DNA of 64,000 nt from Candidatus Niyogibacteria bacterium CG10_big_fil_rev_8_21_14_0_10_46_36 (GTDB lineage Bacteria; Patescibacteriota; Minisyncoccia; 1-14-0-10-42-19), in NCBI GenBank assembly GCA_002772995.1, contig PFCO01000001.1:128244-192243 (forward strand), written 5' to 3'. How positions within the stretch are numbered: the first letter of the stretch is position 1; every line of letters begins with the position of its first letter. A model generated the notes under the pieces. It had not been told where the DNA came from. It ran no database searches and saw only the letters and a program-made list of their open reading frames with translations. A program made the position numbers and the translations under genes. Below, one piece after another: positions 50,921 to 64,000 of the stretch.

Positions 50921-50952
50921 CAAAAAAAACGGCTCTCCTGGCCGTTTTTTAT
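50921..50952 (+). terminator. Bidirectional intrinsic terminator between the small ORF and metG.
   Basis: AAAAAAAACGGCTCTCCTGGCCGTTTTTTATTTT, with stem AAAACGGC/GCCGTTTT. Confidence 0.6.
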
Positions 50953-52514
50953 TTTCTCGGGAAGAGCCCTTCTCCCATCGTCACGCGGAATACATCCCTT
51001 GTTTTGTAATCCTCGGGAGCTGCGCCAAAAATAGCAAATATCTTTTCAGATGTCGCGGGCAAGAACGGACGCACCATATCCGCAAATGCTAACGCGCCAT
51101 ATACTGTGTGCCATAATACCGCCCGCGTTTTCTCTGCGTCGGTCTTAATAAGCTTAAACGGCTCATAATGCTGGATAAACCTATCAAGCTCTCCTAAAAA
51201 TCCCCACGCGATATCAAGCGCCCGCGAAAATTGATACGCATCAAGTGCTTCTTGGTACTGCGGGCGGATATATTGCTCAAAGGAAAACGGCACGCTGAAT
51301 GTTTCTATATTCCCTCCGTTCACTTTATGTTGGCGCAAAAGTTCAGAAGATTCCTGGAGCGGCACCGCGTCCAACAGAGCGCCTTCAGGTTTTTTAAAAT
51401 CTTCCCCGAAATATTGGGTTATCATTTTTGCAACACGCGATACATAATTGCCGAGCCCATTTGCAAGATTTGCATTATACGCATCAACAAACCGCTCCTC
51501 TGTAAAGTCACCATCCTCAAACGGCTCTATCTCGCGGAGCAGAAAATACCGGAGCGCATCTGCGCTAAACCGACGCATAATATCAAAGGGGTCTATCACA
51601 TTACCGATTGTCTTCGACATCTTTTTTCCCCCTGATGTAATAAATCCGTGCACAAAGATGGCCTTCGGCAACGAAAGACCGGCGGATAAAAGCATTCCGG
51701 TCCAAATTGCTGCATGAAATCGCAAAATATCCTTTCCAATAACATGGAGGTTCGCGGGCCAATACTTCTGGAAATGCGCATCATCTTCGCTTCCAAACCC
51801 GAGCGCTGAAATATAATTTGAAAGCGCGTCACACCACACATACATCGTCTGCGTGTCATCTCCCGGGACCGGCACCCCCCACGGAATATCTTTCGCGGGA
51901 CGCGAAAAGCTTATGTCCTGGAGCCCATCATCCAAAAGCGCCATAATTTCGTTTTTACGCGATTCAGGAAACACCGTAAGCTCTCCCTTTGCAATGAGTT
52001 CTTTTATCTTTTTAGAATAACGGGAAAGTTTGAAATAGTAATTTTCTTCTTCAAGTAATTCAGGCTTCTGGTTGTGATCAACGCACTTGCCGTCAATAAG
52101 ATCCTTTTCGGTGATAAAGGCTTCGTGTCCTACGCAATAGAGCCCCTTATACGTCGCCTTATAGAGATCGCCTTTTGCTTCTATCTTTTTCCAGAGCACT
52201 TGCGCACCTGGCCAATGCCGCTTTGTATCCGATGTCCGTATAAAATCCGTATGCGATATGAAGAGCTCTTCTAATAGCTTTTTGAACGTGGCGGCATTTG
52301 CATCAACTAGTTCTTGCGGAGTTTTCCCTTCCTTTTCAGCGCTTCGCGCTATTTTCGCCCCATGCTCATCCGTGCCCGACAAAAAAAAGACATCATCTCC
52401 TTTGATGCGTCTCCATCGTGCAATGACATCTGTTTGTACCGCTTCAAGAGCAAATCCTATATGAGGCGGCGCGTTCACATACGGAAGCGACGTTGTAACA
52501 TAAAATTTTTCCAT
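50949..52514 (-). CDS. metG: Methionyl-tRNA synthetase (short form without the C-terminal tRNA-binding appendix).
   Basis: YVTTSLPYVNAPPHIGFALE is the MetRS HIGH region. KMSKTIGN is the KMSKS motif. Length is 521 aa. Confidence 0.9.
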   Translation of the reverse strand: MEKFYVTTSLPYVNAPPHIGFALEAVQTDVIARWRRIKGDDVFFLSGTDEHGAKIARSAEKEGKTPQELVDANAATFKKLLEELFISHTDFIRTSDTKRHWPGAQVLWKKIEAKGDLYKATYKGLYCVGHEAFITEKDLIDGKCVDHNQKPELLEEENYYFKLSRYSKKIKELIAKGELTVFPESRKNEIMALLDDGLQDISFSRPAKDIPWGVPVPGDDTQTMYVWCDALSNYISALGFGSEDDAHFQKYWPANLHVIGKDILRFHAAIWTGMLLSAGLSLPKAIFVHGFITSGGKKMSKTIGNVIDPFDIMRRFSADALRYFLLREIEPFEDGDFTEERFVDAYNANLANGLGNYVSRVAKMITQYFGEDFKKPEGALLDAVPLQESSELLRQHKVNGGNIETFSVPFSFEQYIRPQYQEALDAYQFSRALDIAWGFLGELDRFIQHYEPFKLIKTDAEKTRAVLWHTVYGALAFADMVRPFLPATSEKIFAIFGAAPEDYKTRDVFRVTMGEGLFPRK

Positions 52515-54855: not shown

Positions 54856-56184
54856 TTATCCGAGCTTTTCTTTGATATATGAAGCAATAGCATCAGCGGG
54901 TATCCGTTCCTGCTCCATAGTGTCCCGGTCGCGTACTGTCACCGTGCCGTCTTCAAGCGTATCGTAATCAACTGTAATACACCACGGCGTTCCTATTTCG
55001 TCCTGTCTCCGATACCGTTTGCCTATATTGCCGATATCATCCCACGCAGCAGACATATCCTTCCGCAGCCCCTCGTACACATCCCTTGCCTTTTTTACGA
55101 TGTTCTCTTTATTAGAAACAAGCGGGAATATTGCAACCTGATATGGTGCGAGTTTTTTGGGAAGCTTAAGAACGGTGCGGACATCTTTTTCTTTCACTTG
55201 CTCTTCAGCATATGATTCTGCGAGCACCGCGAGAAACGCGCGATCAAGCCCGAATGTCGGCTCTACTACATGCGGCAGCTCATGCGTTTTTGTCTCCTCA
55301 TCAAAATAACGGATGTCCGTGCTGCTCCCCTCCATGTGGAGATTCATATCATAATCCCCGCGGTACGCTATCGCCATAAGTTCTTTTACGCCGAACGGGT
55401 ATTCGTATTCAAAATCAATCGTGCGCGATGAATAATGCGCGCGCTCTCCGTCAGGCAAATCATTCGCGTGCAGTTTTTTCCGCGACAAGCCGAGGATATC
55501 CGTCCATTTCATCATTTCTTCAGACCAATATTCAAATGCCTTCTTCCATCCTTTTTCATGTACAAAATATTCAAATTCCATAAGCTCAAATTCGCGCGTG
55601 CGGAATAAGAATTCGCCGGGCGATATCTCGTTCCGGAACACTTTGCCCACTTGCGCGATACCGAACGGCAACTTCGGGTGAAGCGTATCCATGACATTTT
55701 TAAAGTTAATAAAAATGCCTTGCGCGTTTTCAGGACGCAAGTATGCTTCAGATGATTTTTCTTCAAGCGGCCCTATCCATGTCTTAAACAACATATTAAA
55801 GGGGCGCGCTTCGGTTAGCTCTTCCTTGCCACACTCTGGGCATGCCGTACCCTCTATATGGTCTGCGCGGAACCGTCCCTTGCAATGCTTGCAATCAACC
55901 AGTGGGTCCGTAAATTCTTTGAGATGGCCTGATGTTTCCCATACTTTCGGGTGCAACAAAATAGGGGCATCTATCGCATGCACATCGTCGCGGCTATCAA
56001 CAAAAAAAGAAAGCCACGCCCTTCGGATATTTTCTTTCAGGCGGAACCCGAGCGGACCGTAGTCCCAGGTGCCTGCAAGCCCGCCGTACAGCGAAGAACC
56101 GGGGAATATAAATCCCCGTCGTTTAGAGAACCGTATGATATTTTCCATCTTTTCCTGATCCATACCTTTCCCGCCATAATACAA
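54856..56184 (-). CDS. glyQS: Glycyl-tRNA synthetase, alpha2-dimer (eukaryote/archaeal-like) type.
   Basis: IIRFSKRRGFIFPGSSLYGGLAGTWDYGPLGFRLKENIRRAW is the canonical N-terminus of alpha2 GlyRS. The start is probably at the internal MDQEKMEN rather than 56184. Confidence 0.85.
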   Translation of the reverse strand: MYYGGKGMDQEKMENIIRFSKRRGFIFPGSSLYGGLAGTWDYGPLGFRLKENIRRAWLSFFVDSRDDVHAIDAPILLHPKVWETSGHLKEFTDPLVDCKHCKGRFRADHIEGTACPECGKEELTEARPFNMLFKTWIGPLEEKSSEAYLRPENAQGIFINFKNVMDTLHPKLPFGIAQVGKVFRNEISPGEFLFRTREFELMEFEYFVHEKGWKKAFEYWSEEMMKWTDILGLSRKKLHANDLPDGERAHYSSRTIDFEYEYPFGVKELMAIAYRGDYDMNLHMEGSSTDIRYFDEETKTHELPHVVEPTFGLDRAFLAVLAESYAEEQVKEKDVRTVLKLPKKLAPYQVAIFPLVSNKENIVKKARDVYEGLRKDMSAAWDDIGNIGKRYRRQDEIGTPWCITVDYDTLEDGTVTVRDRDTMEQERIPADAIASYIKEKLG

Positions 56185-56193
56185 GATTTGGCG

Positions 56194-58137
56194 CTATGGC
56201 GCTACTTTCCAGTCGTCTTGCCCCGTCTGCGAATCAGAGCGAAGCTCTGTATTTTGTGCGGGTGCTGTTTCGCGTATAGGAACTTGAGTGAACGCATCTG
56301 TTCCCTCCGCTATAACTTCAGACACAATAATGGGACGCGCGCCAACATCGCCCGGCGCAGGAATGTACCCAATCTGGAACCGTATTTCACGGACCGGACG
56401 GATAATGCCCGTGCCCTGCGGAAGCGTCCCCACGGCCCATATCACCTCTCCCGTTAGCGAATTATAAGACACACCGGAGCCCTGTGGTGAAACAAGCCCC
56501 TTCCATATCACATAGGAAGGAAGTGATGCTTTGACTGTAAGATTATTAATATCGTTTGATGAATTTATAAGCGACCAAATGACAGTGTATATTGTCTCTG
56601 TTCCTACTTCTGGCGGCAACGGACCGGAACCCGGCAATACTGTGTCGTGGTACAAGGCTTTGCGCACCAACTGCAAGTCCGTACTTATTTTTATTTCATG
56701 CTGCTTAGTCGTTGCGATATCTATATTCTCAAAACCCGGCGGGCGCTGCAATGCCTCAAATGTTCCCTCAAACCGTACGAAAAAGTTCGCATCAGCAGTT
56801 GAATGGATTGGGAACGACTGCGGAGTACGGAAACGGAAATTAAATGCCCCCTCTTCACCGGGCTCAAGGAACGCAAATGGCGCATACGAAGACGCATTCC
56901 ATGTTATTGTCTGGTCGGTGCCGCGGTATGTTCCGTTTGGAACAATAACCGATGCTTCTTGATATCCCTTTCCTTCGAAGCGAAGGCGGAATATGGCATT
57001 TTCAACCGGTACCGATAAATTATTCTTCCAGCGTATTTGCACATCAACAAAACTGTCAGGTGCAAGCACAATCGGACTGCCATCGTTTATAACATACAAA
57101 AAATCAAGAAATGATTTTGCAACCGTGACTGACACGCTATCAACGCCGTAAAGCACGGTAAGAATGCTATTTTCTTCCTGACCTATTTCCGCGCGGAATA
57201 ATTTAGCATCAAGCTCACTTCCAGTGACAGCGCCGCGGAATGTAATTTTCATAGATTCCCCGCGCTCAATGGTGCCAAGTGCCCACCGATTGTCTCCAAA
57301 TGACGGCACTGGGTCTGCGGTACGAAATGAAAACCCCTCCGGATACTGGAGCACAAGCGTTGCGTTTTCTAGCACATCATCGGCTTGCGAAGATATCTCT
57401 ACAGTAAATTCCGCCTCATCTCCGGAATTAATTATTTCGGGAGCGGTCAAAAAAACTGAGAGCGGTGATTGAGTTATCCGCGTCTGTCCTTCGGATTCGT
57501 TCGCCAGAATAACATTGGATCCGGCAGCGCGGTATTCAAGCGTCGCACGCGCAGTTTTGATACTGTCCTCTTCTCCGAAAAGAAATGCTTCAAATGTCTT
57601 TGTGACTTCTTCTCCCGGACGAAGCGGTCCGAGTGATATCCGGCGCCGGAGCGTTTTGCGGTCTTCTTCAGTCACCGGGCGGGCGCCATCAGGATATTCA
57701 AATATGAGGTCAGCGACTTCGAGCGCGCTTTCTGTTTGGTTGCGCACATGCACTTCCCACGCAACAAAATCCCCTCCGGCAATCTCGCGCGGCGCATCAA
57801 CGGATATTTCGGCACCCTCAAGAGAAACGCCGCCACCACCGGATAAAACAACCCACGCCGCAACGCCCATAGTAACCAACGCAAGAACGCCGCTCCCGAT
57901 AAGGAAGAGTTTGAGATAAGACATTTTTTTGGGCAGATGTTTTTTTTGCTTTGCCATTTCTTCTTCTTTTATATCCTTCCAATCGTGCGGAGCCCGGTCA
58001 TGCAACGGAGCCAATTCCGGGCGCTGTATGCGCTCCTGTCCGTATGATTCTCCCCTGCCATAAATACGCTTGCGCAGCCGCTCAATAGAATCGCCGGGAA
58101 CATAGTCTGAATTATTGCCGTCAAGTTCTTCATTCAT
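56194..58137 (-). CDS. Single-pass membrane protein with a large extracytoplasmic beta-rich (CARDB/DUF11-like) region.
   Basis: A cytoplasmic N-terminus of about 85 aa is followed by a TM helix YLKLFLIGSGVLALVTMGVAAWVVL. Repeated segments of about 100 aa with alternating hydrophobic patterns follow. Length is 647 aa. Confidence 0.55.
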   Translation of the reverse strand: MNEELDGNNSDYVPGDSIERLRKRIYGRGESYGQERIQRPELAPLHDRAPHDWKDIKEEEMAKQKKHLPKKMSYLKLFLIGSGVLALVTMGVAAWVVLSGGGGVSLEGAEISVDAPREIAGGDFVAWEVHVRNQTESALEVADLIFEYPDGARPVTEEDRKTLRRRISLGPLRPGEEVTKTFEAFLFGEEDSIKTARATLEYRAAGSNVILANESEGQTRITQSPLSVFLTAPEIINSGDEAEFTVEISSQADDVLENATLVLQYPEGFSFRTADPVPSFGDNRWALGTIERGESMKITFRGAVTGSELDAKLFRAEIGQEENSILTVLYGVDSVSVTVAKSFLDFLYVINDGSPIVLAPDSFVDVQIRWKNNLSVPVENAIFRLRFEGKGYQEASVIVPNGTYRGTDQTITWNASSYAPFAFLEPGEEGAFNFRFRTPQSFPIHSTADANFFVRFEGTFEALQRPPGFENIDIATTKQHEIKISTDLQLVRKALYHDTVLPGSGPLPPEVGTETIYTVIWSLINSSNDINNLTVKASLPSYVIWKGLVSPQGSGVSYNSLTGEVIWAVGTLPQGTGIIRPVREIRFQIGYIPAPGDVGARPIIVSEVIAEGTDAFTQVPIRETAPAQNTELRSDSQTGQDDWKVAP

Positions 58138-58184
58138 AGCTTACATATATAGTATATAAAAATTTGCACGAACGCGGTATCTCG

Positions 58185-58766
58185 CTACAGATGGCTTGCA
58201 CGAATGCCCTTACTGCACACTGTTTGCAAAATATTCTCTTCGTTCCCGGTGAACGGAACATTCCAATTGTCTGCACGCAGCAGCCGGCGGATATGTTCTT
58301 CTTGCTCGTCGACATAGCCGAGATAATAAAGCATGCGCGCCTGGAAGAGCAGTTCAATAGACACCGGCACGCCGTGTTCGTTGCCCACATTCGTTCCCTG
58401 CAAAAAATGGAACGCAGAAAGTAATGCTTCCCATATGCGCATATCGCGCTCTTCTCCTTGTATAACCCGCAACAGAAACCTGCCCATGCGTCCCGCCATA
58501 AAAAACGCTTCCTCCGAAAATGAATATGCGTGCTTTTCCTCGGCATCAATCAGCCGCGGGAAAGCTCTTCCGAGTACAAATGATACCCGGCTATAAGAAA
58601 ATAACTGCAGATGACTTTTGAGCTTTGAGGATTGCGCCCGTACGCTTTTCGCAAACACGCGCACAAGTCCGAATTCTTTTGTGAATAACACATACATCCG
58701 ATCAGTCTCCCCGATATCAAATGCATCAAGCACAATGCTATCAGTATGGTATATCAAAGCCGACAT
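58185..58766 (-). CDS. recO: DNA repair protein RecO (short form).
   Basis: MSALIYHTDSIVLDAFDIGETDRMYVLFTKEFGLVRVFAKSVR is the RecO N-terminal OB-fold signature. Length is 193 aa. Confidence 0.7.
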   Translation of the reverse strand: MSALIYHTDSIVLDAFDIGETDRMYVLFTKEFGLVRVFAKSVRAQSSKLKSHLQLFSYSRVSFVLGRAFPRLIDAEEKHAYSFSEEAFFMAGRMGRFLLRVIQGEERDMRIWEALLSAFHFLQGTNVGNEHGVPVSIELLFQARMLYYLGYVDEQEEHIRRLLRADNWNVPFTGNEENILQTVCSKGIRASHL

Positions 58767-58768
58767 GC

Positions 58769-61700
58769 CTATCTTTTTACAAACCCTATCTCAAAATAAT
58801 AGTCATCTACCTGAAGCGATGTTTTCATAAATAACTGGTGTGATAATGCTTCACGGACGATTGCATGCGCGCCCACCCCCTGCTTAATGTCATGTTCATA
58901 TTGAGATAATATTTCTTCCCCTTTTTCATCCGTACCAATATGCAGGATGATCTTGTCTTTTGGCGTAAGCCCTGCTTCTTTGCGCATGCCCTGTATCTGC
59001 CTGGTGAGCTCTCTGAACGCTCCCTCCTTTTTCAATTCCGGAGTAAGTACAGTATCCAGCCGTACCGCTTCTTTCATCTTTGCATCAAATAGCACCTGTT
59101 TTACATTCACCTCTCCCGCGATAAGCTCGTGCAATGCTTTCTTTTTCTCAATATGATACTGTGCAGTACGGATAGTAAGAGATGCTAACGGCTGGCGTAC
59201 CTTTATTCCTGCTTGCGTGCGCGCTTGAAGCGCTAGGGAAACGATCTCACGCACTTCCTTCATATCTTTAATAAGAGTTTTTTCTTTTACAGTAAGCGTT
59301 TTATTTTTTGGCCATGAGGATTCGTGCACGCTTCCGCTCTTTTTCATACGGGCGGATATCGCTTCGCTCAAAAATGGAGTGAAGGGCGCTGCGAGCGTTG
59401 CTGCCGCCTGAAGTACATCGCCGAGGACATACACTATCTCTTGCTGTTCCGCTTTTGAACCGAGCTTTACCGCATCGCGAACCCTGCGCACATACCAGCG
59501 TGAGATATCCTCTCCGACAAATTCTTCAAGCACGCGCGCAGCACGCACAACATCATACGCTTCAAGGTATTCGGTTACTTCGCGCGTCACCTCGTGCAGA
59601 CGGGCATACAGCCAATCGTGCAGCGTAAGCGTGGGGCGCGTTATTTTTTTGACAGACACTCCTCCTTGTGCGCCATCCCAGTATTGAAATACATTCCAAA
59701 ATATCATAAGAAATTTGCGCGATGCAGCTTGCACGTCTTTTTCTTCAAACAACTTTTCATCCCACGGCTGGTTGAGTGTATAAAAATACCACCGTACCGC
59801 GTCTGCACCGTACAAAGAGAACAGTGAAAACGGATCAACGGCATTGCCGCGCGACTTGGACATTTTCTCTCCCTTTTTATCAAGCACCAAGCCCATAGTA
59901 ATGACATTTTTATAGGGCGCCGGCAGATGCATAAGAGAAGACACCGCGAGGAGCGTATAAAACCACCCGCGCGTCTGGTCTATACCTTCGGCGATGTAGT
60001 CGGCAGGATACGGAATTGTCTTTTTAATATCCCGCGCGCCCACCGTTTTGCTTTTTATCTTTGCCCAAAACTTTTCGTTCTGCGCATATGGCATTGAGCC
60101 TGAATCAAACCAAACATCCGCAACATCAGGGATGCGGTGCATTTCTTCGTTGCATGACGGACACCGAAGAACAATATTGTCGATATATGGCCGGTGAAAA
60201 TCAAGCTCGCCGCGCGTAAAACTATACGGCCAGTTATGCAGGCGGAGTTTTTTTACCTCTCCTGTGTTTGGATACCACGAATCAAAAAAGTCCTCTTCTT
60301 TTTTTCCTTCAAGTGCGGCGTACAATTCCCACAACGGATCGCCATGCGAAACAACAAGTATGCGTTTGCCTTTGTGGCGCGTAATAATGTCACGGATATT
60401 ATTCATCATACGCACACGGACATCACGCATACTCTCTCCATTGGGAAAGGGTGTGGCAAAACGCGTTTCGCGCGGAAAGATTTTATTTACTTCTGTTATT
60501 GTTTTTCCGGTATAATCGCCGACATCAATATCGTGAATGCTTTCTTCCACCTCCACGGGAATACCATCTAATTCCTTAGATACAATATGCGCTGTGTCTT
60601 TCGTGCGCTTAAGCGGCGAGCAGACAATAACATCTATTTTTCCTTTCAGCGCACGCGCGGTTTGCTGCGCCTGCTTTTTTCCTTTTTCAGTCAGCTGGTT
60701 TTTCTTGTCTGTCTTTGGAGTTGCTGGCCCCACTATCCCCGCTTTGTTATGCGTTGCTTCACCGTGCCGCATAACATACAGCTCTGTCGTATCCGGCATT
60801 GCGCGTCTATCTAAATCATCCAGAGACGAAACAATCTCATGCGAATCGCATGACGCACATGTCCATATCGGGAGCGGCATTCCCCAATAACGCTCACGGC
60901 TGATTGCCCAATCCACATTTTCGCGGAGCCATTCGCCAAATCTGTTCTTTCCTACAAAGTCCGGATGCCACCCAATTTTTGCATTCTCTTTTTGCATAGC
61001 GCTTTTCACCGCGGTTGTACGCAAAAACCAAGAATTTTTTGCGTAATACATAAGCGCCGATTTGCACCGCCAGCAATACGGATAATCGTGCTCATATATT
61101 TCTTTTTTAAAAAGAAGTTTTTTTTCTGCGAGATCCTTGGTAATAATTGCATTCGCATCAGAAAATATTTTTTTATCCCAGGCATAACCGGGTGTTTTCA
61201 TTTGCCCGTCTTCACCTACGGTAACAAGCGTCGGCAAATCGTGCTTTTTTCCCACCCGTTGGTCATCAGCGCCGAACGCGGGTGCTATGTGCACAATGCC
61301 AGTTCCATCTTCCGTTGTTACAAAATCGTCCGCAATAACCGTATATGCATTTTTGTGTTTTTCTTTTGTGGGGTAGAGCGGTTCATACGCCATCCCCGCA
61401 AAGTCATTCCCCCTTTTTTCTTCTCCGCCAGAATACTCTTCGCCTAAGCTAGAAATACGGTCTTTGCCGAGAATGAGCTTTTCTCCGTTGTGCGTTACTG
61501 TTACATACACAGCCTTAGGATTCACTGCCAACGCAACATTCCCCGGCAATGTCCACGGAGTCGTGGTCCACGCCAAAAAGAATGTATTTTTCTCCCCCTT
61601 CACCGGAAACTTTATATAGAGAGAAGTATCTTTCGTTTTTTTATACCCCTGCGCGACTTCGTGCGACGAAAGGGAGGTTTCGCATCGAGGACACCACGGC

Positions 61701-62251
61701 AATACTTTGTAATCGCGGTATACATATCCATTACGCGCAATCTGCCCGAATACCCACCACAACCCCTCTATGTATTCGTTCGTCATTGTGACATAGGGAT
61801 GTTCAAGATCAAGCCAATAGCCCATCCGTTCGGTCATCTTTTCCCAGTCCGCTTTATATTCAAAAACGTTCTCACGCGCGGTCTCAACAAACTTTTCAAG
61901 TCCGAGTTCTTCTATCTTCTTTTTGGTATGTACATTCAATTTTTTCTCAACTTCCATTTCGGTCGGAAGACCGTGCGTATCCCAGCCGGCTTTACGCGGT
62001 ATAGCATACCCCTGCATGGTGCGGAACCGTAATATAACATCTTTGTAAGCGCGTGCGAGCACATGATGAATGCCCGGCCTGCCGTTCGCGTAGGGCGGAC
62101 CTTCATAAAATACAAACGGTTTGCCTTTCGCCGTTTTTTTGACAAGCTTCTTGAATGTGTCATTTTTTGCCCAATACGAAAGAATCTCCTCTTCTATCTG
62201 AGGAAATATCGTTTTGGGGACTCGTTTTTCTTTTTTATCCGTATCTGCCAT
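58769..62251 (-). CDS. ileS: Isoleucyl-tRNA synthetase with an inserted histidine-phosphatase-superfamily domain.
   Basis: PYANGRPGIHHVLARAYKDVI is the HIGH region. GKKHDLPTLV and WRCKSAL belong to the editing/CP1 region. KMSKSRGN is the KMSKS motif. The Zn-finger reads RCPSCNEE. Length is 1160 aa versus about 940-1050 for typical IleRS. The extra length is a roughly 185 aa block (residues about 485-670) carrying the RHGE and SHG motifs. Confidence 0.9.
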   Translation of the reverse strand: MADTDKKEKRVPKTIFPQIEEEILSYWAKNDTFKKLVKKTAKGKPFVFYEGPPYANGRPGIHHVLARAYKDVILRFRTMQGYAIPRKAGWDTHGLPTEMEVEKKLNVHTKKKIEELGLEKFVETARENVFEYKADWEKMTERMGYWLDLEHPYVTMTNEYIEGLWWVFGQIARNGYVYRDYKVLPWCPRCETSLSSHEVAQGYKKTKDTSLYIKFPVKGEKNTFFLAWTTTPWTLPGNVALAVNPKAVYVTVTHNGEKLILGKDRISSLGEEYSGGEEKRGNDFAGMAYEPLYPTKEKHKNAYTVIADDFVTTEDGTGIVHIAPAFGADDQRVGKKHDLPTLVTVGEDGQMKTPGYAWDKKIFSDANAIITKDLAEKKLLFKKEIYEHDYPYCWRCKSALMYYAKNSWFLRTTAVKSAMQKENAKIGWHPDFVGKNRFGEWLRENVDWAISRERYWGMPLPIWTCASCDSHEIVSSLDDLDRRAMPDTTELYVMRHGEATHNKAGIVGPATPKTDKKNQLTEKGKKQAQQTARALKGKIDVIVCSPLKRTKDTAHIVSKELDGIPVEVEESIHDIDVGDYTGKTITEVNKIFPRETRFATPFPNGESMRDVRVRMMNNIRDIITRHKGKRILVVSHGDPLWELYAALEGKKEEDFFDSWYPNTGEVKKLRLHNWPYSFTRGELDFHRPYIDNIVLRCPSCNEEMHRIPDVADVWFDSGSMPYAQNEKFWAKIKSKTVGARDIKKTIPYPADYIAEGIDQTRGWFYTLLAVSSLMHLPAPYKNVITMGLVLDKKGEKMSKSRGNAVDPFSLFSLYGADAVRWYFYTLNQPWDEKLFEEKDVQAASRKFLMIFWNVFQYWDGAQGGVSVKKITRPTLTLHDWLYARLHEVTREVTEYLEAYDVVRAARVLEEFVGEDISRWYVRRVRDAVKLGSKAEQQEIVYVLGDVLQAAATLAAPFTPFLSEAISARMKKSGSVHESSWPKNKTLTVKEKTLIKDMKEVREIVSLALQARTQAGIKVRQPLASLTIRTAQYHIEKKKALHELIAGEVNVKQVLFDAKMKEAVRLDTVLTPELKKEGAFRELTRQIQGMRKEAGLTPKDKIILHIGTDEKGEEILSQYEHDIKQGVGAHAIVREALSHQLFMKTSLQVDDYYFEIGFVKR

Positions 62252-62280: not shown

Positions 62281-62325
62281 AAAAAAAGCCGTCTCTCTAT
62301 ATGTAAGAGAACGGCTTTGTTTTTT
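62281..62325 (-). terminator. Intrinsic terminator downstream of acs and upstream of ileS.
   Basis: AAAAAAAGCCGTCTCTCTATATGTAAGAGAACGGCTTTGTTTTTT, with stem GCCGTCTCT/AGAGAACGGC. Confidence 0.65.
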
Positions 62326-64000
62326 ACGCACGAGAGAAGTATGATTCTCCATGGCATGCTATTTCTTCAAGTGCCTGAGGGTTAACAACGCGCGTTTGCG
62401 CTATTACATACCTATCACAGAACACCCTACTTATTGCTTTATATGGCACTTTTGCCGCGGCATTGCGCGGAAGCTCTTTGATGGCAAATATGCGTTCGGG
62501 TTTTGCTTGCGGATTAACAATATCCGCAACTACAGATCTAAGCGCCGCCTCATCCGTTTCGGTCAGCCGGTCTTGCCCCTCAAGAATAACAAAACATATT
62601 ATTTTGTTTTCTGAATTTTTATCTGGAATGCCGACGGCAATCGCTTCCATAACCCGGAACTCTGCCGCCCGGAAACCAATGAGCGCGCTTTCTATATTTG
62701 CCGGAGAAAATTTTATCCCATTTTTATTAATAATGTCGTCGCTCCGCCCCCGCATGAATACAAACCCGTCTTCGTCCATTTCGGCAAAGTCACCGTGCGC
62801 CCAGACGCCGCGAAAGGCAGAAAAATATGTTTCCTGGTAGCCTTCCTCGTCAGCATAAAATCCGCGGGTCATAGATGGAAAGGGATGCGTGCAGACAACC
62901 CGGCCGGTTTCGCGCCGCACCGATTCCCCTTTTTCGTTGAATATATCTCCGCCCATGCCAAGCGCGAACACGCCGACACTTCCTATTTTGCAGGGGATAT
63001 TCGGAAGATTTTGCGCAAAACAGCCCAGCATCTCCGTGCCGCCGATAATATTATTTATCGGGCACTTTCCCTTCCCAAACACGGAAAAGAACCACTCCCA
63101 ATTTTCCGAAAAAAGAATGGAGCCGGTTGAGCCGAGTATCCGTAACGAAGAAAGGTTAAAATCATCTCCGCTTATATGATTCTTGCGGAGCCCCGCTATA
63201 AAACCGGGCGTTGAACCGAAGATGCTTACTTTATATCTTTCTATGATGCCAAATATCCTATCGGGCTTTGGATACGAAGGGGCGCCCTCAAAACAGACGA
63301 GCGTAGCGCCAAAATGCAGCGCACCGACAATCTCCCACGGCGCCATCATCCAGCCGAAATTTGTCATCCAGTAAAAGACATCGTCTTCTTTGCAGTCAAA
63401 TCCAAACCCCACCTCTTTGCATATCTGCGCAAGCACTCCGCCATGCGTATGAAGAATACGCTTTGGCTTTTTCCCCTTTTCCCGCGTTGTTCCGGAGCTA
63501 AAAAGCATAAGGGCTACATCTTCGGCATTGCACCGTTCCGTGCGCGCTATCGTGCTTTTGCCCTGCTTGCAAAAATCATCCCAGAAAACACTTCTCATTT
63601 CTTTCTTTCCGAAAACAAACGGGGAAAACGGACTATGAGGCGCATCGTTCTCAAACACAACAATATGCCGCACCGAAAAAATATCGGAAACACCCTGATG
63701 AATTTTTTCCAGAGTAAAGTTTTTTCCGCCATACGAATAACTATCGGCCATAAAGAACATTTTTGCCCGCGCTATTCTCACATGGTCAACAATATCTTTT
63801 GTCCCGTCAGTGCTCGTGGTCGGCGCCATTTGCATGCACACCGCCCCAATCTTAAAACACGCGAACATGACCGCTATAGAATCGATTGATATTGGCATGC
63901 ACATCCCTACAAAATCGCCTTTCCCTATGCCATGTGCTTTCATGGCGGAAGCAATAGTATCAACAAGTAGCTTTAGCTGCCAAAATGTGATTGCGCGCTT
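62324..64000 (-). CDS. Acetyl-CoA synthetase / AMP-forming acyl-CoA synthetase, 5' end outside the window.
   Basis: GIGKGDFVGMCMPISIDSIAVMFACFKIGAV, YWMTNFGWMMAPWEIVGALHFGATLV and GRSDDIINKNGIKFSPANIESAL are collinear with Acs. The reading frame stays open upstream of the track's Met through to the window end (..KRAITFWQLKLLVDTIASAM..). Confidence 0.75.
   Translation of the reverse strand, partial: KRAITFWQLKLLVDTIASAMKAHGIGKGDFVGMCMPISIDSIAVMFACFKIGAVCMQMAPTTSTDGTKDIVDHVRIARAKMFFMADSYSYGGKNFTLEKIHQGVSDIFSVRHIVVFENDAPHSPFSPFVFGKKEMRSVFWDDFCKQGKSTIARTERCNAEDVALMLFSSGTTREKGKKPKRILHTHGGVLAQICKEVGFGFDCKEDDVFYWMTNFGWMMAPWEIVGALHFGATLVCFEGAPSYPKPDRIFGIIERYKVSIFGSTPGFIAGLRKNHISGDDFNLSSLRILGSTGSILFSENWEWFFSVFGKGKCPINNIIGGTEMLGCFAQNLPNIPCKIGSVGVFALGMGGDIFNEKGESVRRETGRVVCTHPFPSMTRGFYADEEGYQETYFSAFRGVWAHGDFAEMDEDGFVFMRGRSDDIINKNGIKFSPANIESALIGFRAAEFRVMEAIAVGIPDKNSENKIICFVILEGQDRLTETDEAALRSVVADIVNPQAKPERIFAIKELPRNAAAKVPYKAISRVFCDRYVIAQTRVVNPQALEEIACHGESYFSRA

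What the first reader, a model, noticed from the sequence alone, without database searches (positions are those of the whole stretch)
60229..60799. Isoleucyl-tRNA synthetase carries an in-frame histidine-phosphatase (RHG) domain insertion
IleRS here is 1160 aa. About residues 485-670 lie between the conserved R-E-R-Y-W-G-M-P-L-P block and the RCPSCNEE/ DVWFDSGS block, where E. coli IleRS has roughly 75 residues. This segment reads like a complete histidine-phosphatase-superfamily domain (phosphoglycerate-mutase/phosphatase fold). It has LYVMRHGEATHN (RHG catalytic His), a central basic cluster and ILVVSHGDPL (second His). Flanking IleRS sequence is intact and in frame (HIGH, CP1 editing motifs and KMSKS all present). 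This is therefore a domain insertion rather than a pseudogene. No intein signatures (N-terminal Cys/Ser, C-terminal HN, endonuclease blocks) are present. A phosphatase embedded in an aaRS is not a described IleRS architecture, to my knowledge.
Basis: seen in the sequence. Interest (0 to 1): 0.6.

Follow-up and report, generated by a model that had tools for sequence, protein, structure and literature searches.

The report
Phosphatase domain nested inside isoleucyl-tRNA synthetase
The enzyme that loads isoleucine onto tRNA in this tiny groundwater bacterium carries a complete phosphatase that looks catalytically active spliced into its catalytic domain; in related bacteria the same phosphatase is the gene just upstream or is nested at other positions, which suggests an undescribed partnership whose chemical purpose is unknown.

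Summary
The ORF at 58769-62251 (-) is a 1160-aa type-2 IleRS. An insertion of about 198 aa (aa 486-683) sits in a zinc-ribbon loop and is a complete His_Phos_1 domain (E = 6e-39) with a PhoE/iPSP1-like fold. The gene is not a pseudogene, an intein or a recent arrival.

The architecture is not unique to this window. All 120 nearest homologues, from Parcubacteria/Paceibacteria, share it, and R495, H496, R549 and H636 are kept in 120/120.

New findings:
- **Operon form.** In sister lineages the orthologous ~190-aa phosphatase is a separate gene directly upstream of an insert-less ileS. This holds for 55 of 80 metagenome loci, with a median gap of 3 nt, and synteny with this window is conserved.
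- **Several sites and copies.** Other lineages nest the domain at two or more further sites, with 1-4 copies per enzyme. Nearly every complete copy keeps its catalytic residues.
- **Repeated change of state.** Bootstrapped trees show the state changed at least twice.

The best reading is a catalytically active phosphatase that partners IleRS. Tethering or matched dosage appears to be what is selected, not one precise geometry. The substrate is unknown. I tentatively favour a small phosphorylated product such as pyrophosphate or a nucleotide. The main rival is an unrelated operon neighbour that hitch-hiked into the gene. I found no description of this in the literature I could search.

The parts
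58769..62251 (-). ileS: a type-2 (eukaryote/archaeal-like) isoleucyl-tRNA synthetase of 1160 aa with a nested phosphatase.
   Evidence: ORF. TIGR00392 scores 830 bits against a cut-off of 621. Best solved relatives are 8c8w (E = 3e-226) and 1ile. The AlphaFold model matches 1ile at TM 0.91.
60203..60796 (-). Inserted block, aa 486-683 (198 aa): the phosphatase plus short linkers, measured relative to insert-less IleRSs.
   Evidence: MAFFT alignment against insert-less L101, L049 and L009. Blastp against the L027 IleRS. Coordinates translated.
60248..60787 (-). His_Phos_1 (branch 1) core, aa 489-668. It corresponds to a whole free-standing ~190-aa phosphatase.
   Evidence: Pfam E = 6e-39. The family HMM covers positions 1-187 of 187. 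AlphaFold pLDDT 94.5. Foldseek gives PhoE 1h2e TM 0.83 and iPSP1 4ij5 TM 0.85.
60761..60769 (-). R495-H496-G497: the phosphate-binding Arg and the nucleophilic His.
   Evidence: R and H are kept in 120/120 homologues and G in 117/120. They are also kept in nearly every copy elsewhere.
60605..60607 (-). R549: the second phosphate-binding Arg.
   Evidence: Kept in 120/120 homologues.
60530..60532 (-). D574: the presumed general acid, at the position of the PhoE and iPSP1 Glu.
   Evidence: HMMER alignments to 4ij5 and 1ebb. The column is always acidic in the 120-member family, D:62 / E:58.
60344..60346 (-). H636: the second catalytic His (motif SHGDPLW).
   Evidence: Kept in 120/120 homologues.
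60848..60859 (-). C465-x-x-C468: the first half of the zinc ribbon that is split by the insert.
   Evidence: Both Cys are kept in 120/120 homologues. In the model, strands 462-465 and 471-473 flank this knuckle.
60152..60163 (-). C697-x-x-C700: the second half of the zinc ribbon, preceded by HRPYID (60179-60196).
   Evidence: Both Cys are kept in 120/120 homologues, and so are H686, P688 and D691. Translated.
62063..62077 (-). P-G-I-H-H: the GxHH variant of the class I HIGH motif.
   Evidence: Translated. G60 and H62 are invariant in the family. The motif is described for IleRS2 in PMC10485003.
59852..59866 (-). KMSKS loop motif.
58185..58766 (-). recO-like gene downstream of ileS. It is part of the block that is syntenic with loci where the phosphatase is a separate upstream gene.
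   Evidence: Pfam RecO_N. Blastp to L027 recO gives 5e-15. The next two genes also match, at 4e-61 and 3e-74.

Best explanation
The insert is a catalytically competent, PhoE-like branch-1 histidine phosphatase. It would work through a phospho-His496 intermediate, with R495, R549 and H636 binding the phosphate and D574 acting as the general acid.

It is the internalised form of a ~190-aa phosphatase that partners IleRS across Parcubacteria. In sister lineages the two proteins are made from translationally coupled adjacent genes (phosphatase first, then ileS). In this lineage the whole phosphatase ORF has been nested into the loop of a zinc ribbon in the connective-peptide region of the IleRS catalytic domain. 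The result is a single polypeptide carrying three hydrolytic or synthetic sites: aminoacylation, CP1 editing and phosphatase.

Other lineages nest the same domain in different IleRS loops and keep up to 3-4 copies with intact catalytic residues. This suggests that co-localisation or fixed stoichiometry with IleRS is what selection favours, not one precise geometry.

My tentative, inferred chemical role is removal of a small phosphorylated product of the adenylation reaction. Pyrophosphate is the leading candidate, with AMP or another nucleotide as alternatives. Removing it would pull the reversible activation step forward.

Shown: the domain's identity, its fold, conservation of its catalytic residues, its distribution, the operon linkage, and the multiple sites and copies. 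Inferred: that the domain is catalytically active, that it is functionally coupled to IleRS, and what its substrate is.
For: **Identity and fold.**

**Catalytic conservation.** R495, H496, R549 and H636 are kept in 120/120 homologues, E606 in 118 and R614 in 119. Position 574 is always Asp or Glu in those 120. Among 172 domain copies from the best 149 representatives, nearly all complete copies keep the same signature. This includes both copies of the two-copy enzymes I checked.

**Not recent.** GC and GC3 of the insert match the host. Homologues down to 44% identity share site A.

**Operon linkage.** Five of nine free-standing relatives that I looked up sit next to an insert-less IleRS. In 80 metagenome loci, 55 have the phosphatase directly upstream on the same strand, 15 have it nested, 2 have IleRS about 2.3 kb downstream, 7 lie on contigs too short to judge, and 1 is unlinked. 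The stop-to-start distance has a median of 3 nt, and 52 of 62 pairs are 50 nt or less apart. Twelve outgroup IleRS2 loci lack the phosphatase. Synteny between L027 and this window is confirmed.

**Co-divergence.** Host and phosphatase distances correlate (Spearman 0.42, reached by 0 of 500 permutations).

**Repeated, multi-site nesting.** The state changed at least twice, with key nodes at 100% and 99% bootstrap. Sites A, A', B and C were verified by alignment.

**Hint about the substrate.** The only two non-IleRS fusions among the top 150 relatives are to ATP sulfurylase and to TsaC/Sua5. Like IleRS, both convert ATP to an adenylate and release PPi. Phosphoanhydride cleavage has precedent in branch 2 of the superfamily (PMC13573052).
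Against: There are no activity data of any kind.

No clade-specific residues in the substrate pocket were identified, and no NCBIfam equivalog cut-off is reached, so the substrate cannot be read from the sequence.

The pyrophosphate idea has several weaknesses:
- It does not explain why IleRS alone among the PPi-releasing synthetases has this partner.
- It rests on two singleton fusions.
- The ATP-sulfurylase fusion lies next to a sulfotransferase, so it could instead be a PAP phosphatase.
- The precedent for phosphoanhydride cleavage is in branch 2 of the superfamily, not branch 1.

Tethering gives little kinetic advantage for a freely diffusing product (my own reasoning). Conserved operons around ileS that have no functional logic do exist. 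E. coli ribF-ileS-lspA is an example (my own knowledge).

I could not obtain model coordinates, so I do not know where the phosphatase active site lies relative to the ATP and tRNA sites.
Confidence: 0.55

Rival explanations
1. Hitch-hiker. The phosphatase is a housekeeping metabolic enzyme with no connection to isoleucylation, for example a broad-specificity sugar-phosphate, phosphoserine or nucleotide phosphatase. It happens to sit upstream of ileS in a conserved operon. Local duplication and illegitimate recombination repeatedly dropped copies into permissive surface loops of the neighbouring gene. In streamlined genomes these copies persist because nesting guarantees expression.
For: The adjacent gene supplies an obvious DNA source for insertions into ileS, and this would explain why only IleRS is hit. 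The insertion sites fall in different IleRS domains (CP zinc ribbon, Rossmann half, anticodon-binding domain). That argues against a positioned catalytic role. The domain keeps a generic PhoE-like pocket and fold. Functionally unrelated conserved operons around ileS are known, such as E. coli ribF-ileS-lspA (my own knowledge).
Against: The phosphatase-ileS pair stays together across very deep divergence, about 33-36% IleRS identity and across two IleRS lineages, while the genes further upstream differ. Ancient extra copies in one enzyme all keep their catalytic residues instead of decaying, with copy-to-copy distances of 1.4-1.9 substitutions per site. Nesting an unrelated enzyme into the catalytic core of an essential synthetase, several independent times, is a costly route to co-expression.
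Confidence: 0.25
2. Macromolecular substrate. The phosphatase acts on something bound to IleRS or on IleRS itself. It could remove a 3'- or 2',3'-phosphate or a pyrophosphate from damaged or toxin-modified tRNA(Ile) ends. Alternatively it could reverse an inhibitory phosphorylation of IleRS, by analogy with HipA-type kinases that target class I synthetases.
For: The window's insertion site is in the connective-peptide region of the catalytic domain. The domain lacks the last ~20 positions of the profile, which form the C-terminal tail that caps the site in mutases. The domains are basic, with net charge about +8 (nested) to +13 (free-standing) per ~185 aa. Toxins that phosphorylate synthetases or pyrophosphorylate tRNA CCA ends exist (my own knowledge).
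Against: Copies nested in the anticodon-binding domain (site C) or present in 3-4 copies fit poorly with a single positioned target. There is no match to any defence-system model. The high positive charge is common in these Lys-rich proteomes, and the window's own insert is only +4. A repair or immunity role rarely shows such universal, vertical conservation.
Confidence: 0.12
3. Non-catalytic module. The domain has become a structural, tRNA-binding or regulatory (phospho-ligand sensing) appendage, and hydrolysis is irrelevant.
For: Accessory domains of synthetases are often non-catalytic RNA binders (my own knowledge). The domain is basic.
Against: The nucleophilic His, both Arg, the second His and an acidic residue at the general-acid position are kept in 120/120 homologues. 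They are also kept in nearly all complete copies across about 1 substitution per site of divergence. A pure binding module would not need the acid catalyst.
Confidence: 0.06
4. Artefact. The feature results from an assembly chimera, a disrupted pseudogene, an intein or a mobile-element insertion.
For: None beyond the unusual length of the protein.
Against: The ORF is uninterrupted. The identical protein is on record from 3 contigs, one of 459 kb. Hundreds of independent metagenomic homologues share the same junctions. No intein or endonuclease families match. The composition of the insert equals that of the host. The fold of the whole protein is confidently predicted.
Confidence: 0.01

Closest known systems
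Bacterial type-2 IleRS (Priestia megaterium IleRS2, PDB 8C8U/8C8W; Thermus thermophilus IleRS, 1ILE)
   Same: The domain order is the same: HUP/Rossmann core, CP1 editing domain, CP zinc ribbons, and the anticodon-binding and DUF5915 C-terminal domains. The window's enzyme has the GxHH signature-motif variant described for some IleRS2, which 8C8W carries as an engineered HIGH-motif mutant. E = 3e-226 to 8c8w, and TM is 0.82-0.91.
   Different: The known enzymes have about 12-20 residues in the zinc-ribbon loop, where this enzyme has a 198-aa phosphatase.
Short branch-1 histidine phosphatases: Geobacillus PhoE (1H2E/1EBB), Hydrogenobacter phosphoserine phosphatase iPSP1 (4IJ5), CobC, Rv3214
   Same: The fold matches (TM 0.83-0.85, rmsd 2.3-2.6 A, 27-29% identity). 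The size is about 190-200 aa. The catalytic residues match in kind: R, H, R, an acidic residue and H.
   Different: Those enzymes are free-standing metabolic phosphatases. This one is nested in a synthetase or encoded in an operon with one. It has Asp in place of Glu at the acid position, carries the clade motif SHGDPLW, and reaches none of the subfamily cut-offs.
NCBIfam NF040702 'isoleucine--tRNA ligase, N-acetyltransferase domain-containing' (ileS_w_GNAT)
   Same: It is a precedent for an IleRS that carries an extra enzyme domain.
   Different: The extra domain is a different kind (GNAT). The window protein scores 283 bits against a cut-off of 1999, so it is not a member.
CP1 editing domain of class Ia synthetases
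   Same: It is a hydrolytic domain nested in the Rossmann fold through a zinc-stabilised connective peptide, giving two active sites in one polypeptide (my own knowledge).
   Different: CP1 is universal and ancient and hydrolyses aminoacyl esters. This insert is restricted to one lineage, has a different fold, performs phosphoryl-transfer chemistry, and occurs at variable sites and in variable copy number.
Bifunctional enzymes that pair a histidine phosphatase with a nucleotide-using partner (PPIP5K/Vip1 kinase-phosphatase; PFK-2/FBPase-2)
   Same: A histidine-phosphatase domain is covalently coupled to an ATP-using catalytic domain. In PPIP5K/Vip1 the phosphatase cleaves a phosphoanhydride (PMC13573052).
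   Different: Those are end-to-end fusions with opposing activities on one metabolite, and the PPIP5K/Vip1 phosphatase belongs to branch 2. Here a branch-1 domain is nested inside a synthetase, and no shared substrate is known.

Membership tests
Isoleucyl-tRNA synthetase (TIGR00392 ileS) | The whole-protein score reaches the curated equivalog cut-off. | tested here: met
   830.2 bits against a cut-off of 621.4.
Isoleucyl-tRNA synthetase (TIGR00392 ileS) | Class I signature motifs HIGH and KMSKS are present. | tested here: met
   KMSKS is at aa 796-800. HIGH is present as the GxHH variant (PGIHH), which is reported to be functional in IleRS2.
Isoleucyl-tRNA synthetase (TIGR00392 ileS) | The CP1 editing-domain motifs are present (the Thr-rich TTTPWTLP and GTGxVHxAPxxGxDD). 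| tested here: met
   Both motifs are present and conserved in the family.
Isoleucyl-tRNA synthetase (TIGR00392 ileS) | The enzyme shows isoleucine-specific aminoacylation activity. | not testable with these tools
   This needs biochemistry.
Type-2 IleRS (IleRS2) | The C-terminal organisation is type 2 (ARD domains/DUF5915, with no C-terminal zinc-binding domain), and the closest relatives are IleRS2 enzymes. | tested here: met
   DUF5915 matches at aa 991-1136. The MupA/MupB models are the best subtype hits. 8c8w and 1ile are the best structures.
Histidine phosphatase superfamily, branch 1 (PF00300) | The profile score exceeds the gathering threshold. | tested here: met
   134 bits against 21.7, E = 6e-39.
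Histidine phosphatase superfamily, branch 1 (PF00300) | The catalytic core is present: RHG, a second Arg, an acidic proton donor and a second His. | tested here: met
   R495, H496, R549, D574 and H636. The Arg and His positions are invariant in the 120 homologues, and the acid position is always D or E.
Histidine phosphatase superfamily, branch 1 (PF00300) | The domain has the alpha/beta fold of the superfamily. | tested here: met
   AlphaFold pLDDT 94.5. TM 0.83-0.85 to PhoE and iPSP1.
Histidine phosphatase superfamily, branch 1 (PF00300) | The domain has phosphatase activity through a phospho-histidine intermediate. | not testable with these tools
   This needs an enzyme assay and the H496A mutant.
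Cofactor-dependent phosphoglycerate mutase (TIGR01258 pgm_1; dPGM_arch NF038349) | The score reaches the curated cut-off and the domain has the mutase-length architecture. | tested here: not met
   44.8 against 81.7, and 71.5 against 225. Mutases are 230-250 aa and align with lower target TM.
Phosphoserine phosphatase PspA, alpha-ribazole phosphatase CobC and SixA | The score reaches the curated equivalog cut-off. | tested here: not met
   89.9 against 350, 79.5 against 162.9, and 53.7 against 74.5.
Intein | A Hint/intein splicing domain, an N-terminal Cys/Ser, a C-terminal HN, or a homing-endonuclease domain is present. | tested here: not met
   No such Pfam family matches. The insert starts PDTTELY and ends TRGEL. 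By contrast, the relative P0307 does carry PF14890.
IleRS with GNAT domain (NF040702) | The score reaches the curated cut-off. | tested here: not met
   282.7 against 1999.
Anti-phage defence systems (PADLOC) | The sequence matches a defence-protein model. | tested here: not met
   No family matches the insert.

The most novel reading that the evidence does not exclude
Parcubacterial IleRS is a previously unrecognised bifunctional synthetase-phosphatase system. A dedicated histidine phosphatase is functionally required for isoleucyl-tRNA synthesis in these organisms. It might clear pyrophosphate or a nucleotide product in cells that otherwise conserve PPi, or it might heal a phosphorylated tRNA or enzyme. 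Evolution has captured this partner repeatedly, as an operon subunit and as a domain nested at three or more different loops in 1-4 copies. If so, it would be a natural experiment in domain insertion from a neighbouring gene.
Probability: 0.35. Interest if true: 0.85.

Novelty: new variant of a known kind. Interest (0 to 1): 0.7.

Why it matters
Aminoacyl-tRNA synthetases are among the best-studied enzymes. Their accessory domains (editing, tRNA-binding, signalling) have each revealed new biology. As far as I could find, a conserved phosphatase with intact catalytic residues nested inside the catalytic domain has not been described. The same phosphatase also occurs as a translationally coupled upstream gene, and nested at other sites and in several copies.

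If the coupling is functional, there is an unrecognised requirement in tRNA charging in the Candidate Phyla Radiation. That is a huge, uncultivated and metabolically minimal part of the bacterial tree. The requirement could be product removal, repair or regulation.

If the coupling is not functional, this is still an unusually clear natural series showing how a neighbouring gene becomes a nested domain of an essential enzyme. It also shows which IleRS loops tolerate a 20-kDa insertion, which is useful for protein engineering.

There is a practical point for annotation too. Many of these proteins are currently labelled only 'class I tRNA ligase family protein', and their length can mislead annotation and phylogenetic marker pipelines.

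Tried and rejected
- **Intein, pseudogene or chimera:** rejected.
- **Recent horizontal insertion:** rejected. GC and GC3 equal those of the host, and the insert is shared down to 44% identity.
- **A link between the phosphatase and the GxHH motif:** rejected. Both GxHH and HxGH occur among phosphatase-associated IleRSs.
- **N-terminal fusion in the 'adjacent' loci:** none found. A stop codon or frame change separates the genes in every case.
- **Nested and adjacent forms as two clean clades:** rejected by bootstrapped NJ trees.
- **Defence-system membership:** no match.
- **Structured RNA in the window:** no Rfam match.
- **Mutase, PspA, CobC or SixA identity:** no curated cut-off is reached.
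- **Net charge as evidence for RNA binding:** inconclusive.
- **TsaC and ATP-sulfurylase fusions as recurrent families:** not supported. Each was seen on a single contig, and the TsaC fusion's phosphatase relatives are all free-standing.

Attempts that led nowhere:
- The GTDB genome scan with a single protein reached only close relatives, 8 of which carry the insert.
- The 35-sequence alignment was too diverse for the metagenome scan.
- Cluster look-ups gave almost no organism names.
- Papers on IleRS structure do not describe the role of the split zinc ribbon.
- The Méheust CPR protein-family paper that I opened from the pyrophosphatase search (PMC6744442) mentions pyrophosphatase only in its reference list, so I learned nothing on whether these bacteria have one.
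- Model coordinates are not exposed, so I could not measure distances from the phosphatase site to the ATP and tRNA sites.
Full report
**1.

The window has one uninterrupted ORF at 58769..62251 on the minus strand, encoding 1160 aa. Pfam finds the class I synthetase catalytic domain (tRNA-synt_1, E = 1.3e-109) in two stretches. Between them lies His_Phos_1 at aa 491-663, with E = 6e-39 and covering profile positions 1-174 of 194. Anticodon_1 and DUF5915 follow. NCBIfam names the protein ileS (830 bits against a cut-off of 621), and the type-2 MupA/MupB models are the next best hits.

Against solved structures the best matches are Priestia megaterium IleRS2 (8c8w, E = 3e-226) and Thermus IleRS (1ile). 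The alignment stops at query residue 484 and resumes at about 667-680, and both ends map to 8c8w residues 472-480. Insert-less type-2 IleRS genes from Clostridia and several archaea span the same 256-aa query in 62-64 codons. A blastp against the L027 IleRS puts 12 residues opposite query residues 485-685. A multiple alignment with three insert-less enzymes delimits the inserted block as aa 486-683, which is 60203-60796 in window coordinates.

The insert splits a zinc ribbon. C465-x-x-C468 lies before it, and H686-R-P-Y-I-D followed by C697-x-x-C700 lies after it. All of these residues are invariant in 120 homologues.

GC (46.4% against 46.4%) and GC3 (45.5% against 47.3%) do not differ between insert and host. 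No intein or endonuclease family matches.

AlphaFold models are confident. The full-length model has pLDDT 90.1 and pTM 0.84, and its host part superposes on 1ile at TM 0.91. The insert alone has pLDDT 94.5 and pTM 0.91.

This variant has been described for some IleRS2 enzymes and is associated with mupirocin hyper-resistance (PMC10485003).

**2. The phosphatase appears catalytically intact.**

Its closest solved relatives are the short phosphatases of branch 1: iPSP1 4ij5, PhoE 1ebb/1h2e, CobC and Rv3214 (TM 0.83-0.85, rmsd 2.3-2.6 A). The longer mutases are more distant. It reaches no curated subfamily cut-off for PspA, CobC, SixA or dPGM.

In 120 homologues, R495, H496, R549 and H636 are invariant. 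E606 is kept in 118 and R614 in 119. The general-acid position is always acidic, D:62 / E:58. The window has Asp where PhoE and iPSP1 have Glu.

**3. It is a lineage-wide architecture.**

The identical protein belongs to a Candidatus Niyogibacteria MAG, on a contig of 459 kb. All 120 best database hits, at 44-72% identity, carry PF00300. They are named Niyogi-, Giovannoni-, Taga- and Nealsonbacteria or Parcubacteria/Patescibacteria. All 120 have the domain at the same site.

An exhaustive search with the insert alone found 15,042 relatives at E <= 1e-3, but only 8 at E <= 1e-30. This is consistent with a fast-evolving domain, and its distances run about 1.3 times the host's. Among the best 149 representatives, 90 are embedded in IleRS and 59 are not.

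**4. The same phosphatase is also an operon partner of insert-less IleRS.**

I looked up nine free-standing ~190-aa relatives.
- Five lie directly beside an insert-less IleRS. In L027 the phosphatase ends 1 nt before a 972-aa ileS.
- A sixth is cut off by the end of its contig.

I then ran a metagenome scan with an alignment of free-standing proteins. It returned 576 relatives, and I classified the best 80 loci with family HMMs:

| Arrangement | Loci |
|---|---|
| Phosphatase immediately upstream of an insert-less ileS, same strand | 55 |
| Phosphatase nested in ileS | 15 |
| ileS about 2.3 kb downstream | 2 |
| Contig too short to judge | 7 |
| Room on the contig, but no ileS | 1 |

No case is an N-terminal fusion. 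The distance from the phosphatase stop to the ileS start has a median of 3 nt. It is 50 nt or less in 52 of 62 pairs, and sixteen pairs have a 4-nt overlap. Twelve outgroup IleRS2 loci have no phosphatase nearby.

The window's gene order is ileS, recO, a DUF11 surface protein, then a class II synthetase. L027 has the same order with a separate phosphatase gene in front. Blastp between the corresponding proteins gives 5e-15, 4e-61 and 3e-74. The window has no second copy of either gene.

The nested domain corresponds to the whole free-standing protein. One nested clade still shows that protein's own N-terminus (xNxYYILRHGQT...YPWPE) and its last strand (GExRKI).

**5. The state has changed repeatedly, and several sites are used.**

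I built a neighbour-joining tree of 97 host sequences with inserts removed (900 columns, 200 bootstraps). It gives the following support:

| Grouping | Bootstrap support |
|---|---|
| A clade mixing nine 'adjacent' loci with nested forms | 100% |
| All nested forms as one group that excludes those nine loci | 0% |
| The two-copy enzymes as one group | 100% |
| The two-copy enzymes as sister to the adjacent-type loci L101 and L087 | 99% |

Host and phosphatase distances correlate, with Spearman 0.42, a value reached by 0 of 500 permutations. In the two site-A clades the RHG motif starts 40-41 residues after the host RYWG motif, so the insertion point is the same.

Other lineages differ. Direct alignment shows further ~170-200-aa phosphatase blocks at these positions:
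- **Site A':** inside the second CxxC knuckle (P0138, second copy).
- **Site B:** between WFDSGxxPFA and PADFIxEAxDQTR (P0170, P0254, P0168, P0124).
- **Site C:** in a loop of the anticodon-binding helical domain, before DxWILSRL (P0141, P0170, P0254, and the truncated start of a third copy in P0124).
- **Possible site D:** a divergent, truncated protein (P0122) has four copies, one of them ahead of the RYWG segment.

The architecture counts among the sequences I hold are:

| Architecture | Sequences |
|---|---|
| A | 198 |
| A+A | 7 |
| B+C | 7 |
| A+C | 2 |
| A+B(+C) | 1 |
| B | 1 |
| D+A+A+A | 1 |

Nearly every complete copy keeps the catalytic signature. This includes both copies of the two-copy enzymes I checked, even though those copies are 1.4-1.9 substitutions per site apart.

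The association also spans two very different IleRS lineages. One has KMSKS and DVWFDSG. The other is archaeal-like, with EMHKS and NPWLDAGI. Relatives of the second lineage are named Nealsonbacteria or Patescibacteria.

**6. What it most likely does.**

Five things are shown:
- An intact-looking phosphatase is kept under purifying selection.
- It is tightly linked to ileS over deep time, either as a coupled upstream gene or as a nested domain.
- It has been nested more than once.
- It is nested at several sites.
- It is sometimes present in several conserved copies.

Gene neighbourhood and gene fusion pointing the same way are the classical signature of a functional partnership. The variety of sites and copy numbers suggests that tethering or stoichiometry matters more than a fixed geometry.

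The substrate is not determined. One hint comes from the only two non-IleRS fusions among the top 150 relatives. They are to ATP sulfurylase (P0195) and to TsaC/Sua5 (P0145). Like IleRS, both form an adenylate from ATP and release pyrophosphate. Phosphoanhydride cleavage by a histidine phosphatase has precedent in branch 2 of the superfamily (PMC13573052). I therefore tentatively favour clearance of pyrophosphate, or of a nucleotide product.

The caveats are substantial:
- Both fusions are singletons.
- The ATP-sulfurylase fusion is followed by a sulfotransferase, so it could instead be a PAP phosphatase.
- Nothing explains why IleRS alone would need this partner.
- Proximity gives little kinetic gain for a product that diffuses freely (my own reasoning).

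The main rival is that an unrelated housekeeping phosphatase in a conserved ileS operon was repeatedly copied into permissive loops of its neighbour. E. coli ribF-ileS-lspA shows that functionally unrelated ileS operons exist (my own knowledge). A macromolecular substrate, such as tRNA ends or phospho-IleRS, fits less well with copies in the anticodon-binding domain. A non-catalytic role fits poorly with the conservation of the catalytic residues.

**7. Comparison with what is known, and novelty.**

- **Host.** It is a bona fide member of IleRS, and of the type-2 group.
- **Insert.** It is a bona fide branch-1 histidine phosphatase of the PhoE/iPSP1-like short subgroup. It does not belong to any characterised subfamily.
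- **Precedent.** NCBIfam has an 'IleRS with GNAT domain' model, so IleRS with an extra enzyme domain has a precedent, but this protein is not a member.
- **Literature searches.** Full-text searches for IleRS with histidine phosphatase, phosphoglycerate mutase or His_Phos_1, for synthetase insertions in the Candidate Phyla Radiation, and for Parcubacteria with IleRS all found nothing relevant.
- **Recent IleRS studies.** Two recent structural and phylogenetic studies mention neither a phosphatase nor Patescibacteria. One of them annotated domains in about 96,000 IleRS sequences.
- **Databases.** The proteins are already in public databases and carry precomputed Pfam hits. They are labelled only 'isoleucine--tRNA ligase' or 'class I tRNA ligase family protein'.

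I therefore rate the finding as a new variant of a known kind: a synthetase with an accessory domain. It has unusual evolutionary behaviour and an unknown function.

**8. Verdict.**

Interest is 0.7. The finding is real, widespread, apparently undescribed and directly testable, but its mechanism remains inferred.

Noticed in passing
window 62063-62077 (-): The class I HIGH signature of this IleRS reads P-G-I-H-H. This is the swapped GxHH variant reported to give IleRS2 hyper-resistance to mupirocin (PMC10485003). It is the majority state in the nested family, but phosphatase-associated IleRSs also include canonical HxGH forms.
   Followed up: partly
window 54856-62251 (-) compared with L027 6001-12573: The block ileS, recO, DUF11/CLIPPER-like surface protein (647 aa) and class II aaRS is conserved with L027, although the two IleRSs are only 33-36% identical. 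The recO here is short (193 aa) and only its RecO_N half matches Pfam.
   Followed up: partly
P0307 (1539 aa; relative of the L027-type IleRS): An insert-less-type patescibacterial IleRS carries an intein splicing domain (PF14890). IleRS in this group therefore also hosts a true intein, distinct from the phosphatase insertion.
   Followed up: no
L113 6001-7707 (P0195) and L114 977-2140 (P0145): There are rare fusions of the same phosphatase clade to other enzymes. One is to PUA_2 plus ATP sulfurylase, in a glycan-synthesis cluster, and it overlaps a sulfotransferase gene. The other is to TsaC/Sua5. Each was seen on a single contig.
   Followed up: partly
L022 1045-2286 and L023 1519-2760 (P0159); L108 4430-5576: Free-standing two-domain phosphatases of 380-480 aa exist, with ten representatives. 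P0159 is not next to ileS. L108 has two phosphatase copies in tandem directly upstream of ileS.
   Followed up: no
L024 2682-5609 (-): An insert-less IleRS lies convergent to the phosphatase gene with a 3-nt gap. It was called as two genes (554 and 412 aa), split between the editing-domain segment and the RYWG segment. This could be a split IleRS, a frameshift or a sequencing error.
   Followed up: no
L027, L034, L041, L050, L051, L073-L077, L082, L086, L092, L107 (adjacent-type loci): A clade of patescibacterial IleRS has archaeal-like motifs: MGVHH for HIGH, EMHKS for KMSKS, and NPWLDAGI for DVWFDSGS. In the NJ tree it groups near archaeal IleRS, but it keeps the upstream phosphatase gene.
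   Followed up: partly
window 50949-52514, 54856-56184, 58769-62251 (all -): Three aminoacyl-tRNA synthetase genes lie within 12 kb on one strand: MetRS, a class II tRNA-synt_2b/HGTP_anticodon enzyme, and IleRS. They are interspersed with an M16 peptidase and an AI-2E transporter. TatD and a proline dehydrogenase lie just downstream of MetRS.
   Followed up: no
window 62324-63943 (-): The gene upstream of ileS, where sister lineages have the phosphatase, is an AMP-binding (acyl-CoA synthetase-like) enzyme. Its match starts at profile position 39, so its N-terminus may be shortened or its start mis-placed. It is another adenylate-forming enzyme that releases PPi.
   Followed up: no
L021 2526-3140: In one locus a 23S_rRNA_IVP (four-helix-bundle) gene sits between the phosphatase gene and ileS.
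   Followed up: no
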